Shown here one piece after another: positions 4,591-6,418 of a stretch of 13,015 bases of DNA. Below the pieces are notes generated by a model. It was not told the DNA's origin. It did not search any database and saw nothing but the letters and a program-made list of their open reading frames with translations. A program made the translations under genes and the position numbers. Source of the stretch: Deltaproteobacteria bacterium (GTDB lineage: Bacteria > Myxococcota_A > Polyangia > Polyangiales > Houyiibacteriaceae). Within the stretch, counting starts at the first letter, position 1. Every line of letters starts with the position of its first letter. The stretch is taken from assembly GCA_034670305.1 (NCBI GenBank), contig JAXMNT010000093.1, positions 1-13,015 on the forward strand, given 5' to 3'.

Positions 4591-6315
4591 ATGAGTGGTG
4601 CGAGCCGACCCGGCGCCCTGCGGCGGCCCGAGACCTTCGGCCGATACGAGCTGCGCGCAGAACTGGCCTCCGGCGGCATGGGCACGGTCTTCGCCGCCAA
4701 GGTGCACGGTCCAGGCGGGTACGAGAAACTCGTCGCGCTCAAACGCATCCACGAACACCTCGCGAAAGACCCGCGCTTCGTCTCGATGTTCCTCGACGAA
4801 GCGCGCCTCGCCGCGCGCCTGCAACATCCCAACGTGTGCAGCGTGATCGACTTCGGAGAGGTGGACGGAAGCTACTTCCTGACGATGCCGTTTCTGTTCG
4901 GCGAGACCCTCTCCCGGGTCCGCCGTTACGGCAGCAAGGCGGAGGGACCGTTGGCCGACGCGTTCCCGTTCATCGTCTGCCGCATCGTCGCGGATGCGTG
5001 CGAAGGGCTGCACTCGGCGCACGAGCTCACCAACGACCAGGGCGAACCACTGCTCGTCGTCCACCGCGACGTCAGCCCCGGCAACCTGATGGTGGGGTAC
5101 GACGGGACCGCGAGCGTCATCGACTTCGGTGTCGCGAGTGCGCGCGAACGGCTCCACAGCACCGTGACCGGCGAGGTGAAAGGCAAGTTCGGGTACGGCG
5201 CGCCCGAGCAGCTGCAATCACAGCCGATCGATCGGCGCGCGGATCTGTGGTCGCTCGGCGTGATCCTCTGGGAGTGTTTCTCCGGCCGGCGCCTCTTTCA
5301 TCGCCCGAGCATGGCGCAGACGGTGATGGCGGTGTGCACCGCGCCGGTGCCCGCGCTCTCGGACCACTGGCCCGACGCGCCCTTGGAGCTCGAAGAGGTC
5401 GTCTTCAAAGCGCTGAACCGCGATCCGGAACGCCGCTATCGGACCGGGCGCGACATGGGCCGCGCGCTGCTCGAAGCGCTGCAGGAATGCGGGCGCAGCG
5501 TGAGCACCGCGGACGTCGCCGAGTGGATGGCGGAAGTGTTTCCGGACGGCGAGTTGGAGAAGCGTCGGCTCTTCGAAGCGGCGGACACGTCGGGCGCGAT
5601 CGCGGCTCCGCCCAAGATGGAACCAGAAGCGGTGAGTGGCGTGCAGGGGCCGGACCGGACGGGGCCAAGGCCGCGGGTGCTGCCGCCTTGGGCGCTGGCG
5701 GTTGGGGCGCTGGTGCTGGTGGGCGGGAGTGTGGCGGCGACGCGGCAGTGGGGGCGGGCGGAGGCCACCGAGGCAGAGACAGCGACAGCGGCAGAGACAG
5801 CGGCAGCGGCAGAGACAGCGGCAGCGGCAGCGGCAGCGGCAGCGGCAGTGGCGGAGACAGCGGCAGCGGCAGAGACCGAAGCCGGAGCCGACACCGAAGC
5901 CGAAGCCGACGCCGAAGCCGAAGCCGAAGCCGAAGCCGAAGCCGAAGCCGAAGCCGAATCCGAATCCGAATCCGAATCCGAAACCGAAACCGAATCCGAC
6001 GCCGAATCCGAATCCGACGCCGAATCCGACGCCGAATCCGACGCCGAAGCCGAAGCCGCCAGCGCCGACTCCGTGGCTGCGGCTGGGATGACGCGTGCGG
6101 TTCGGGGGGAGGGGACGGTGGTGGTGTCGTTGTCGCGTGGGTGGGCGTACGTCTACGAGGGGCGGCGGCGGCTGGGGGAGGCGCCGCGGCGCTTCACGTT
6201 GCCGGCGGGGCGGCACACGTTGCGGGTGCAGCCGGGTGGGCAGGGGCCCGGGATCCGGAGGCGCATCGTCGTGCGCGCGGGAGAGACCACGCGCCTGCCG
6301 ATCACCGTGGACTGA
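4591..6315 (+). CDS. Hanks-type membrane Ser/Thr protein kinase with TM helix, acidic low-complexity linker and C-terminal PEGA-like domain, about 574 aa
   Basis: [95 protein letters not shown]-terminal GTVVV...[24 protein letters not shown]...[10 protein letters not shown] (PEGA-like). Start ATG at 4591. Confidence 0.93.
5773..6057 (+). repeat. In-frame period-6 repeat tract in the kinase: (GCAGCG/GCAGAG/ACAGCG)n at 5773-5874, then (NCCGAN)n at 5875-6057
   Basis: Includes (GCCGAA)x8 at 5911-5958 and (TCCGAA)x4 at 5959-5982; encodes AETAAAA...[16 protein letters not shown]. Confidence 0.95.
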
Positions 6316-6345
6316 AGAGCGCCCGCAGGGCGATGTTCAGTCCAC
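6307..6345 (+). terminator. Hairpin overlapping the kinase stop codon (putative atypical terminator, no U-tract)
   Basis: GTGGACTGAA (6307-6316) pairs perfectly with TTCAGTCCAC (6336-6345); inner stem CGCCC/GGGCG, 3x3 internal loop, GCA loop. Confidence 0.6.
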
Positions 6346-6418
6346 CCCGTGCCCGTGCCCGTGCCCGCGCCCGCGCCCGTGCCCGTGCGTGCCCGTGCCC
6401 GTGCCCGTGCGTGCCCGT
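6346..6418 (+). repeat. (GTGCCC)n hexamer tandem repeat
   Basis: About 10 GTGCCC/GCGCCC units with two truncated GTGC units; the minus strand is (GGGCAC)n with many GGG runs. Confidence 0.95.

What the first reader, a model, noticed from the sequence alone, without database searches (positions are those of the whole stretch)
6307..6418. Stop-codon hairpin followed directly by CCC(NTGCCC)n, an architecture seen at three gene ends
Seen: the kinase (6307-6418, +), zinc-ribbon gene (6572-6512, -) and RCC1 lipoprotein (12894-12952, +) each end in a hairpin overlapping the stop codon, followed with no gap by CCC and TGCCC-core hexamers on the sense strand, with no U-tract. The kinase hairpin is unrelated in sequence to the other two and its left arm is coding DNA, so structure rather than sequence is shared. 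Inference: either an undescribed terminator or 3'-end class (pause hairpin plus C-rich Rho/protein-binding tract, or a G4 on the template strand), or hairpins are the target where an enzyme adds or inserts repeats.
Basis: partly seen in the sequence, partly recalled or inferred. Interest (0 to 1): 0.75.

Follow-up and report, generated by a model that had tools for sequence, protein, structure and literature searches.

The report
Stop-codon hairpins followed by C-rich hexamer repeats
Three gene ends in this myxobacterial DNA carry a tight RNA hairpin that swallows the stop codon and runs straight into a C-rich six-base repeat; this is most likely a compact transcript-end signal built from a microsatellite, a local variant of known designs.

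Summary
Three hairpins (6307-6345 +, 6546-6572 -, 12894-12919 +) each pair the last bases of a native stop codon and are followed with zero gap by CCC(NTGCCC)n on the sense strand. They sit at all 3 fully visible transcription-unit ends and at 0 of 6 operon-internal gene ends. The same module occurs in other Myxococcota: L104, L042, L048, L120. The wider claim is weak. In 127 tracts from 119 loci of many phyla, hairpins are not enriched next to tracts. In 27 Myxococcota tracts only the zero-gap junction is enriched (3 of 27, p about 0.005). Orientation there is 7 sense against 4 antisense, and outside the phylum 7 against 12. Best reading (confidence 0.4): a stable sense-strand hairpin protects the 3' end and a slippage-prone C-rich microsatellite serves as a Rho loading site, as mapped in E. 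coli by Dar and Sorek 2018. Rivals are a neutral G4-capable microsatellite, a REP-like dispersed element and a G-quadruplex roadblock. No evidence supports an enzyme that adds repeats. I rate it a new variant of a known kind.

The parts
4396..6315 (+). Ser/Thr protein kinase with a C-terminal PEGA domain. Its last two codons and stop form the left arm of hairpin 1.
   Evidence: Pfam Pkinase E 4.5e-30 and PEGA at residues 574-637. Homologue P0001 ends 2 residues after the aligned ...PVTV, so the stop is native.
6307..6345 (+). Hairpin 1: a 10-bp perfect outer stem that contains TGA 6313-6315, plus an inner 5-bp stem with a GCA loop.
   Evidence: -27.3 kcal/mol, z -4.13, 0 of 200 shuffles as good. 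Sequence read.
6346..6418 (+). C-rich array CCC(GTGCCC/GCGCCC)n, 73 nt, with no A. Its complement is a canonical G3N3 G-quadruplex motif.
   Evidence: period 6 x 12.8 copies; period 22 x 3.2. (C37 G25 T11, C/G 1.48, 22 YC dimers).
6443..6476 (+). Degenerate TTGCC/TTGCCC-like remnant between the two arrays.
   Evidence: sequence. row 6454-6476 (12-nt unit x 1.9).
6510..6545 (-). C-rich array on the sense (-) strand of the Zn-ribbon gene: alternating TTGCCC and CTGCCC(C) units, 36 nt.
   Evidence: 12-nt unit x 3.0, 100% matches. (C21 G6 T9, C/G 3.5). It pairs with 6346-6418 in read-through RNA.
6546..6572 (-). Hairpin 2: GAGC/GCTC base, GGTCGC/GCGACC core and AAA loop. The last two bases of stop 6573-6571 are paired.
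   Evidence: -16.4 kcal/mol, z -2.27, 4 of 200 shuffles as good. Window 6514-6566 (most of the hairpin plus tract) is 90.7% identical over 54 nt to L120.
6571..7680 (-). Gene for a protein with an N-terminal zinc ribbon and an AgmX/PglI/TonB-like C-terminal domain.
   Evidence: Pfam Zn_Ribbon_1. Source names of homologues. All 28 of 28 printed homologues end ...PFSR like this protein.
11195..12895 (+). RCC1-repeat lipoprotein gene, last gene of the unit 8797-12895.
   Evidence: Pfam RCC1-like domain E 4.2e-53. The window's own 566-aa record is P0002. The lipoprotein-type N-terminus is seen. Homologues P0048 and P0056 end ...VCLP and P0067 and P0074 end ...RVVLPE.
12894..12919 (+). Hairpin 3: 11-bp perfect stem with a GAAA tetraloop, starting at the AG of TAG 12893-12895. 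It shares the GGTCGC/GCGACC core with hairpin 2.
   Evidence: -22.3 kcal/mol, z -6.10, 0 of 200 shuffles as good..
12920..12952 (+). C-rich array CCC(TTGCCG/TTGCCC/GTGCCC)n, 33 nt.
   Evidence: period 6 x 5.5. (C17 G7 T9, C/G 2.43).
12953..12965 (+). Small 5-bp stem followed by a T-rich tail directly after array 3. It is a weak terminator-like site.
   Evidence: The stem is also present in the fold of 12885-12975.

Best explanation
Each site is a compact transcript-end module of a myxobacterial (Polyangia-type) genome. Step 1 (shown): a very stable GC-rich stem-loop forms in the sense RNA and pairs the last bases of the native stop codon. Its loop is of the GAAA, AAA or GCA type. Step 2 (shown): it is followed with no gap by an A-free, C-rich, G-poor hexanucleotide microsatellite, CCC(NTGCCC)n. 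Step 3 (inferred): the untranslated C-rich tract, which offers a YC dinucleotide every 6 nt, is the loading (rut) site for Rho, which then stops RNA polymerase a short way downstream. Step 4 (inferred): 3' exonucleases trim the RNA back to the hairpin, which becomes the stable 3' end. Step 5 (inferred from the 22-nt and 12-nt higher-order periods): tract length and unit mix drift by replication slippage. At the convergent kinase/Zn-ribbon pair the two tracts are complementary, so any read-through RNA also folds into a long duplex.
For: The module lies at 3 of 3 fully visible transcription-unit ends (kinase, Zn-ribbon, RCC1). It is absent at 0 of 6 operon-internal gene ends (989, 2138, 2896, 7742, 10329, 11198); Fisher p = 0.012 by my arithmetic. 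The stops are native: 28 of 28 Zn-ribbon homologues end ...PFSR, and the RCC1 and kinase homologues end at the same place. The stop codon is base-paired in the window's 3 hairpins and in L104, L048 and L036+. All 9 loops, read on the C-rich strand, are GAAA x2, GAA, GCA x3, AAA x2 and CAAAGT. Their complements are not stable-loop types, which points to a sense-strand RNA structure. No hairpin has a U-tract, and the tracts have C/G of 1.48, 3.5 and 2.43 with no A. This matches the E. coli picture of Rho-dependent 3' ends: stable stem-loops not followed by U, with rut sites immediately downstream and a mild excess of C over G (PMC6061677). It also matches the rut description of YC dimers and C>G bubbles (PMC13613805 passage). 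Independent genomes repeat the design: L104 (Sandaracinaceae MAG), L042 (Kofleriaceae MAG), L048 and L120. Zero-gap stems of at least 7 bp occur at 3 of 27 Myxococcota tracts against 1.2-1.5% expected, p = 0.004-0.007.
Against: There are no RNA data. No rho gene lies in the window, so its presence in this genome is unverified. The tracts are not the strongest C>G 60-nt windows in the window: the kinase tract skew is about 0.19, while the top coding windows reach 0.37-0.59. Two tracts are only 33-36 nt long, short for a rut of about 60 nt. The kinase tract can pair with itself in the MFE fold. Most Myxococcota tracts, 24 of 27, lack a zero-gap hairpin. Orientation is not significantly biased: 7 sense against 4 antisense (one-sided p 0.27). 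L063, L090 and L094 x2 are G-rich on the sense strand. L097 sits between closely spaced same-strand genes. In L111 and L094 the tract sits beside a canonical U-tract terminator instead. Outside Myxococcota the crude count is 7 sense against 12 antisense and there is no hairpin enrichment (3 of 100 against 5.9% background). L120 carries a module 91% identical to the Zn-ribbon one but no sense-strand stop codon is visible.
Confidence: 0.4

Rival explanations
1. This is a neutral microsatellite. (NTGCCC)n would be a slippage-prone, G4/i-motif-capable hexanucleotide repeat that arises and persists wherever GC-rich genomes tolerate it, mainly in 3' intergenic DNA. Ordinary end-of-gene hairpins happen to lie in the same short spacers, or hairpins stall replication and seed slippage beside them. 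The tract itself would do nothing.
For: It appears in coding and non-coding DNA and in both orientations. Across the sample it is not enriched next to hairpins: 7 of 129 tracts have a stem of at least 7 bp against 6.2% background. The window is unusually rich in other tandem repeats, with 26 TRF rows in 13 kb including long hexamer arrays inside genes. Higher-order 22-nt and 12-nt periods and a decayed remnant at 6443-6476 look like slippage followed by decay. The position of the tract relative to terminator hairpins varies in L111 and L094.
Against: The zero-gap junction is enriched about 8-fold in independent Myxococcota tracts, p = 0.004-0.007. Three of 3 in the window have it, with the stop codon paired each time. 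In the window all 4 NTGCCC-type arrays are intergenic, while the other hexamer arrays are coding. Hairpin plus tract is conserved as one unit between genomes: 91% over 54 nt, with most of the hairpin included. Bacteria are in general depleted of short tandem repeats (PMC12699852 passages), so their persistence needs a reason.
Confidence: 0.3
2. This is a dispersed REP/MITE-like repeat family. Hairpin plus tract would be one short repetitive extragenic element that spreads or is homogenised within and between Polyangia genomes. It would land in 3' intergenic DNA in either orientation, often as inverted pairs.
For: Hairpins 2 and 3 share the GGTCGC/GCGACC core with an A-rich loop. In 413,672 nt searched that combination occurs only next to tracts: the window twice and L120. 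The Zn-ribbon module is 90.7% identical to L120 over 54 nt, E 1.7e-11. RCC1 and L104 have the same GAAA loop and the same TAGC...GCTCCC flanks with 3 compensated stem differences. Inverted tract pairs occur in the window, L104, L092, L094 and L025. L120 seems to lack a sense-strand gene end.
Against: The left arm of the kinase hairpin is conserved coding DNA and is unrelated in sequence to the others. All three stops are native, and the stems start inside them, which an insertion would rarely achieve. No conserved 5' tetranucleotide exists: GTAG in L104 and L042, CTAG in RCC1, L048 and L036, and TGA in two others. No transposase-like gene lies in the window. Copy number in the genome is unknown.
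Confidence: 0.13
3. This is a DNA-level roadblock. The G-rich complement, (GGGCAN)n with at least 4 G3 runs, would fold into a G-quadruplex on the template strand. For polymerases entering from the convergent gene it would lie on the non-template strand and favour an R-loop. Either way it would stop transcription or replication-transcription conflicts between convergent genes.
For: All three tracts satisfy the G3N3-type motif on the antisense strand: 5 to 7 C3 runs are read on the sense strand. Comparable G4-forming repeats in Xanthomonas and Nostoc prefer at least 4 units, lie within 50 bp of stop codons and often come as inverted pairs (PMC4692102). Two of the three tracts lie between convergent genes, as do L104, L048 and L094.
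Against: The strand is opposite to the Xanthomonas/Nostoc rule, where the G-rich strand is the coding strand after the stop. This model does not explain the strand-specific stable RNA loops or the paired stop codon. No structural data exist for this unit. In duplex 70% GC DNA, G4 formation would need strand opening.
Confidence: 0.1
4. An enzyme, telomerase-like or retroelement-like, would add or insert hexamer repeats at hairpins.
For: The only support is the zero-gap junction itself.
Against: No reverse transcriptase, transposase or nuclease gene lies in the window. The arrays mix unit variants and higher-order periods as slippage does. Most tracts have no hairpin: 24 of 27 in Myxococcota and 97 of 100 elsewhere. 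Tracts also occur inside genes.
Confidence: 0.02

Closest known systems
Rho-dependent terminators with a protective 3' stem-loop and a rut site just downstream (E. coli; Dar and Sorek 2018, PMC6061677)
   Same: Both have a stable stem-loop right after the gene, no U-tract and no upstream A-tract. In both, RNA with more C than G begins immediately downstream.
   Different: Here the C-rich part is a perfect-to-degenerate hexanucleotide tandem repeat with zero gap, and the hairpin overlaps the stop codon. Two tracts are only 33-36 nt. Rho dependence and 3' ends are untested.
G-quadruplex-forming simple sequence repeats, GGGAATC in Xanthomonas and GGGGA(C/T)T in Nostoc (Rehm et al. 2015, PMC4692102)
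   Same: Both are G3+ repeat units that are abundant in non-coding DNA. Both lie within 50 bp of stop codons, usually have at least 4 units, and frequently form inverted (convergent) pairs that can make stem-loops.
   Different: The unit here is 6 nt, not 7, and the phylum differs. After the stop codon the C-rich strand, not the G-rich strand, is the sense strand. A separate hairpin abuts the repeat here.
Hairpin terminators without a U-tail in GC-rich bacteria ('I-shaped' terminators, or the HS-U-lack 3' ends of Streptomyces clavuligerus; PMC8269248)
   Same: Both have strong GC stem-loops at mapped or presumed 3' ends without a U-tract, in DNA of about 70% GC.
   Different: No repeat tract is reported there in the passages I read. 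Their mechanism is itself unsettled between intrinsic termination and Rho-dependent ends.
REP/BIME and REPIN elements of enterobacteria and pseudomonads (recalled; no paper read here)
   Same: Both are extragenic GC-rich hairpins near gene 3' ends, sometimes close to stop codons, occurring as inverted pairs and similar in sequence between unrelated loci.
   Different: No consistent 5' GTAG is present, one hairpin is built on coding DNA, and no RAYT gene was seen. A microsatellite tail is not a REP feature.
Canonical intrinsic (Rho-independent) terminators
   Same: Both have a GC-rich hairpin with a 3-4 nt stable loop directly after the gene, and the following tract starts at the base of the stem.
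   Different: The tract is C-rich rather than U-rich, and an rC:dG hybrid is strong, so the release mechanism cannot be the same (established knowledge).

Membership tests
Intrinsic (Rho-independent) terminator | GC-rich stem-loop at the end of a transcription unit | tested here: met
   positions read.
Intrinsic (Rho-independent) terminator | Run of U (T) within a few bases after the stem | tested here: not met
   The first 8 bases after each stem hold 0-2 T. None of the three is listed by the terminator scan.
Rho-dependent terminator with protective stem-loop | Stable stem-loop not followed by U-rich sequence | tested here: met
   and the sequence. Criterion taken from PMC6061677.
Rho-dependent terminator with protective stem-loop | Downstream RNA with C>G and regularly spaced YC dimers, about 60 nt, poorly structured | tested here: inconclusive
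   C/G is 1.48, 3.5 and 2.43, with 22, 15 and 11 YC dimers. Tract lengths are 73, 36 and 33 nt. The tracts are not among the top 8 C>G 60-nt windows. The kinase tract self-pairs in the MFE fold.
Rho-dependent terminator with protective stem-loop | Read-through rises when Rho is inhibited, and RNA 3' ends map at the stem base | not testable with these tools
   No RNA data are available and no rho gene lies in the window.
G4-forming intergenic SSR class (Rehm 2015) | At least 4 G-runs of 3 or more with short loops on one strand | tested here: met
   Five to seven C3+ runs are read on the sense strand of each tract.
G4-forming intergenic SSR class (Rehm 2015) | Downstream of an ORF, the G-rich strand is the coding strand within 50 bp of the stop | tested here: not met
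   All three tracts are C-rich on the coding strand. In Myxococcota loci the count is 7 C-rich-sense against 4 G-rich-sense.
G4-forming intergenic SSR class (Rehm 2015) | Frequent inverted pairs of repeat sites | tested here: met
   Window 6346-6418 against 6510-6545 (z -3.87, 0 of 200 shuffles as good). Also L104, L092, L094 and L025.
G4-forming intergenic SSR class (Rehm 2015) | Quadruplex folding of the repeat in vitro | not testable with these tools
   This needs CD or NMR.
REP/REPIN (RAYT-associated) | Conserved 5' tetranucleotide (GTAG) before the palindrome (feature recalled) | tested here: not met
   GTAG occurs in L104 and L042; CTAG in RCC1, L048 and L036; a TGA context in the kinase and Zn-ribbon hairpins.
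REP/REPIN (RAYT-associated) | Tens to hundreds of near-identical copies per genome plus a RAYT gene | not testable with these tools
   Only 13 kb of the genome is held. Two of 3 hairpins share a 6-bp core. No transposase domain was found in 9 ORFs.
Microsatellite (simple sequence repeat) | Head-to-tail units of at most 6 nt | tested here: met
Microsatellite (simple sequence repeat) | Copy-number variation between strains | not testable with these tools
Rfam RNA families | Match to any curated covariance model | tested here: not met
   No match at gathering score. There was only a chance-level hit to a eukaryotic lncRNA model, E 0.11 and 18.4 bits against a 50-bit gathering score, and none.

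The most novel reading that the evidence does not exclude
Polyangia-type myxobacteria would use a dedicated, sequence-defined transcript-end module: a stop-codon-sequestering GNRA/GNA hairpin followed at once by a C-rich hexamer array that takes the place of the U-tract. It would be read by a specific factor (Rho with an unusual preference, or another C-tract or hairpin-binding protein). Its array length would be tuned by slippage, so that termination or mRNA stability at hundreds of genes becomes a heritable, rapidly adjustable quantity.
Probability: 0.12. Interest if true: 0.8.

Novelty: new variant of a known kind. Interest (0 to 1): 0.45.

Why it matters
How transcription ends in very GC-rich bacteria, where U-tract terminators are scarce, is still unsettled. 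Myxobacteria are major natural-product producers, and their gene clusters are engineered without good terminator parts. A short, recognisable module of hairpin plus C-rich repeat would help on three counts. It would be a searchable marker of transcription-unit ends in these genomes. It would be a candidate portable terminator. It would also be a case where a mutable microsatellite sets a gene-expression parameter. If the tract turns out to be neutral, the finding is still a clean example of G4-capable repeats accumulating at gene ends in a third bacterial phylum.

Tried and rejected
1. Rfam found no family: whole window at gathering score, and E-value mode on 6250-6650 and 12800-13015.

2. An energy-only hairpin scan was not discriminating in 70% GC DNA. 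I replaced it with perfect-stem criteria.

Only 80 of 120 loci carry 2.5-kb flanks.

4. A search for orthologous loci among the fetched DNA (blastn and tblastx) found only repeat-to-repeat matches, so no empty-site comparison was possible.

6. A five-sequence alignment of the hairpins was too ragged to build a covariance model. I used pattern scans instead.

7. I rejected the idea that the tracts are translated. The frames crossing them have non-coding GC3 or the antisense-mimic signature of GC2 above GC1.

8. I rejected the reading as an intrinsic terminator because there is no U-tract.

9. I considered the plasmid, phage and E. coli collections and did not search them. A hairpin of about 26 nt cannot reach significance there, and the low-complexity filter removes the tract.

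10. Literature searches for this repeat in bacteria or myxobacteria found nothing relevant in the open-access library. Subscription journals are not covered.
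Full report
WHAT THE WINDOW IS. The window is 13,015 bases at 69.8% GC. Its genes are of the myxobacterial type. On the minus strand lie an alpha/beta hydrolase (139-957), a WGR-domain ATP-dependent DNA ligase (989-2128), an unannotated ORF ending at 2138 and a Glu/Leu dehydrogenase (2896-4032). A Ser/Thr kinase with a PEGA domain follows on the plus strand (4396-6315). A zinc-ribbon protein (6571-7680, minus) and an ORF (7742-8287, minus) come next. The last unit, on the plus strand, holds an FHA-sigma54 activator (8797-10329), a secreted protein (10396-11198) and an RCC1-repeat lipoprotein (11195-12895). 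Sources call the zinc-ribbon protein's homologues AgmX/PglI C-terminal domain or TonB family proteins. The closest of them, 77-79% identical in the C-terminal part, include Sandaracinus sp. and Polyangiaceae MAG proteins. The window therefore most likely comes from a Polyangia-class myxobacterium.

Each of the three sites has a hairpin that includes the stop codon and is followed with zero gap by CCC and TGCCC-core hexamers on the sense strand.
- Hairpin 1 (6307-6345) has a perfect 10-bp outer stem whose left arm is the last two codons plus TGA. Its inner 5-bp stem has a GCA loop. Energy is -27.3 kcal/mol, z -4.1, and 0 of 200 shuffles fold as well.
- Hairpin 2 (6572-6546, minus strand) folds at -16.4 kcal/mol, z -2.3, with 4 of 200 shuffles as good.
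- Hairpin 3 (12894-12919) has 11 perfect pairs and a GAAA loop. Energy is -22.3 kcal/mol, z -6.1, with 0 of 200 shuffles as good.
- TGCCCNTGCCC occurs 11 times against 0.04 expected.
- TRF reports the arrays at 6346-6418 (period 6 x 12.8, also period 22 x 3.2), 6510-6545 (12-nt unit x 3.0, 100% matches) and 12920-12952 (period 6 x 5.5). A remnant lies at 6454-6476.
- None of the three hairpins has a U-tract. A weak terminator-like stem with a T-rich tail follows the RCC1 tract at 12953-12965.
- Folding energy alone is not unusual in this DNA. The perfect stems, the loops, the paired stop and the junction are what stand out.

(a) The three stops are the native ones. All 28 of 28 printed zinc-ribbon homologues end ...PFSR, as this protein does. 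Of 12 printed RCC1 homologues, two end ...VCLP and two end ...RVVLPE, and the other eight diverge. The one kinase homologue ends two residues after the aligned ...PVTV. The hairpins were therefore built around existing stop codons. They were not dropped in with a stop of their own.
(b) The module sits at all 3 fully visible ends of transcription units. It is absent from all 6 gene ends followed closely by a same-strand gene: 989, 2138, 2896, 7742, 10329 and 11198. Fisher p is 0.012 by my arithmetic. The hydrolase end at 139 shows only a single CCCGTGCC six bases after its stop in the 138 bases visible. If that end counts as a unit end without a module, p rises to 0.033.
(c) The loops are strand-specific. 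Read on the C-rich strand, the nine loops seen here and in related loci are GAAA x2, GAA, GCA x3, AAA x2 and CAAAGT. GNRA and GNA loops are stable loop types (recalled knowledge), and their complements are not. This argues for a structure used in the sense RNA.
(d) The two tracts between the convergent kinase and zinc-ribbon genes are complementary. A read-through RNA of 6300-6590 folds into one long duplex at -160.8 kcal/mol, z -3.9, with 0 of 200 shuffles as good. The minus strand folds at -156 kcal/mol, z -2.2, with 7 of 200 as good.
(e) Hairpins 2 and 3 share a GGTCGC/GCGACC core with an A-rich loop. In 413,672 nt searched that combination occurs only beside tracts: twice in the window and once in L120.

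RELATED SEQUENCES. It did not reach the source genome. Only 80 loci have 2.5-kb flanks, and the rest have about 300 nt. The hits span many phyla, with Streptomyces and Myxococcota prominent. I dropped L037 as a duplicate of L036.
- Over all 129 tracts, stems of at least 7 bp ending within 9 nt of the tract occur at 7 of 129, against 6.2% background.
- After splitting the sample, Myxococcota give 4 of 27 against 7.5% (p 0.14) and the others give 3 of 100 against 5.9%.
- Across bacteria the tract is therefore not a hairpin-associated element. Many tracts are coding.
- With a crude GC3-based caller, tracts outside Myxococcota are C-rich-sense after a gene end 7 times and G-rich-sense 12 times. 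This is my count of the table after excluding rows flagged as open through the tract.

WITHIN MYXOCOCCOTA (24 loci, 27 tracts).
- A sense-strand ORF with GC3 of at least 0.88 ends at most 70 nt upstream at 7 tracts: L036+, L036-, L042, L048, L070, L097 and L104.
- Four tracts are G-rich-sense only: L063, L090 and L094 x2.
- About 6-7 tracts are inside ORFs and the rest are unresolved.
- Seven against four is not significant (one-sided p 0.27). Adding the window gives 10 against 4 (p 0.09).
- The exact design recurs. L104 (Sandaracinaceae MAG) has TAG, an 11-bp stem with the same GAAA loop and the same TAGC...GCTCCC flanks as the RCC1 hairpin, then CCCGTGCC, a second GAA-loop hairpin and the tract. 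Its convergent gene has its own sense C-rich tract.
- L042 and L048 have GCA-loop hairpins with zero gap after TAG-terminated ORFs. L120 has a 10-bp stem with zero gap.
- Zero-gap stems of at least 7 bp occur at 3 of 27 tracts against 1.2-1.5% per position, p 0.004-0.007.
- Of the 7 perfect stems of at least 10 bp in 75,771 nt of Myxococcota DNA including the window, 5 lie within about 30 nt of a tract.
- Window 6514-6566, which covers the tract and most of hairpin 2, is 90.7% identical to L120 over 54 nt, E 1.7e-11.

RESULTS AGAINST A SIMPLE ORIENTED TERMINATOR.
- In L111 the order is stop, tract, then a canonical A/T-flanked 12-bp terminator.
- In L094 a canonical terminator lies between two inverted tracts, with the G-rich copy next to each gene.
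- L097 sits between closely spaced same-strand genes.
- L120 shows no sense-strand stop at its hairpin.

HOW IT MOST LIKELY WORKS. The closest experimentally grounded design is the Rho-dependent 3' end of E. coli. Dar and Sorek found steady-state 3' ends immediately downstream of stable stem-loops that are not followed by U. They placed rut sites immediately downstream and saw a mild excess of C over G in that DNA (PMC6061677; abstract and section 12 read). Rut sites are described as about 60 nt, rich in regularly spaced YC dimers, with C>G and little structure (PMC13613805 passage). The three tracts have no A and C/G ratios of 1.48, 3.5 and 2.43. They carry a YC dimer in every 6-nt unit and start beyond the reach of a ribosome stopped at the paired stop codon. 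I therefore propose the following sequence of events, all of it inferred. The tract loads Rho, polymerase is released just downstream, and exonucleases trim the RNA back to the hairpin. Slippage changes the tract length over time, as the 22-nt and 12-nt higher-order periods suggest.

Four weak points remain. The tracts are not the strongest C>G windows in the window. Two of them are only 33-36 nt long. The kinase tract can pair with itself. No RNA data or rho gene are at hand. I put this reading at 0.4.

RIVALS.
- A neutral, G4-capable microsatellite that merely shares short 3' spacers with hairpins (0.3) explains the broad-sample results. It leaves unexplained the zero-gap enrichment and the conservation of hairpin and tract as one unit.
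- A REP-like dispersed element (0.13) explains the sequence similarity between unrelated loci and the L120 orientation. It does not explain the coding-arm kinase hairpin or the stems that begin inside native stops. There is no consistent 5' tetranucleotide and no transposase in the window.
- A DNA G-quadruplex or R-loop roadblock (0.1) is allowed by the motif. It resembles the heptamer repeats of Xanthomonas and Nostoc, which lie within 50 bp of stops and form inverted pairs (PMC4692102; abstract and passages read). There, however, the G-rich strand is the coding strand after the stop, the opposite of what is seen here.
- An enzyme that adds repeats (0.02) has no support.

NOVELTY. No paper in the open-access library mentions this repeat in bacteria or a myxobacterial terminator of this form. 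The searches were made, and subscription journals are not covered. Hairpins without U-tails at 3' ends of GC-rich Streptomyces are known, and their mechanism is unsettled (PMC8269248 passages). Bacteria are in general depleted of short tandem repeats (PMC12699852 passages). I rate the finding a new variant of a known kind: a microsatellite-built C-rich tract fused to a stop-codon hairpin, in a phylum where it has not been described.

WHAT STAYED UNCHECKED.

Noticed in passing
window 5772-6058: Two long hexamer arrays, GGCAGC x 16.8 and CCGAAG x 30.5, lie inside the kinase gene. They encode an acidic Ser/Glu/Asp/Ala-rich linker before the PEGA domain. Homologue P0001 has a similar SDxE-type stretch at the same place.
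   Followed up: partly
window 8782-8975: Arrays GCGGTC x 17.7, a 24-nt unit x 3.9 and CGGCTT x 14 lie at the start of the sigma54-activator ORF. They translate to runs of Ala-Val, Ala-Glu, Ala-Ser and Gly-Phe dipeptides. It is unclear whether this is the real N-terminus or lies upstream of the true start. The FHA domain begins near residue 107.
   Followed up: partly
window 11621-11691 and 7816-7934: A perfect 15-nt unit x 4.7 inside the RCC1 gene encodes DAPGT repeats. An 18-nt unit x 6.6 lies inside the ORF 7742-8287. Together with the other arrays, 26 TRF rows in 13 kb suggest a genome unusually prone to in-frame tandem repeats.
   Followed up: no
window 989-2128 (-): An ATP-dependent DNA ligase with an N-terminal WGR domain lies in a same-strand run with a Glu/Leu-type dehydrogenase, an unannotated ORF and an alpha/beta hydrolase.
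   Followed up: no
window 6571-7680 (-) and homologues P0122-P0149: This zinc-ribbon plus AgmX/PglI/TonB-like C-terminal domain protein has a strictly conserved C-terminal ...PFSR in 28 of 28 homologues. AgmX and PglI are names given by sources. A link to gliding motility is recalled, not tested.
   Followed up: partly
L059 2494-3465; L098: In a Planctomycetota MAG the tract is embedded in a unit of about 460-470 bp that repeats three times with nearly identical flanks. A related flank appears in L098 from the same MAG. This looks like a larger tandem or dispersed repeat that carries the hexamer array.
   Followed up: no
L092 about 300-380; L025 about 2440-2551: Here (GGGCAC)n is directly followed by (GTGCCC)n, so the array is inverted on itself and the repeat units alone form a hairpin. 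This hints that strand-switch events within arrays can create hairpins.
   Followed up: no
L094 359-388; L111 348-375: Polyangiaceae MAG loci carry canonical 12-bp terminators with A and T flanks next to the tracts. U-tract terminators therefore coexist with the hexamer arrays in this phylum.
   Followed up: partly
L070 about 2466-2500; L031; L028: Compound microsatellites occur here, with other short repeats directly abutting the GTGCCC array. These are CTCGT units in L070, GAATCC units in L031 and GTCATG/GTCGTG units in L028.
   Followed up: no
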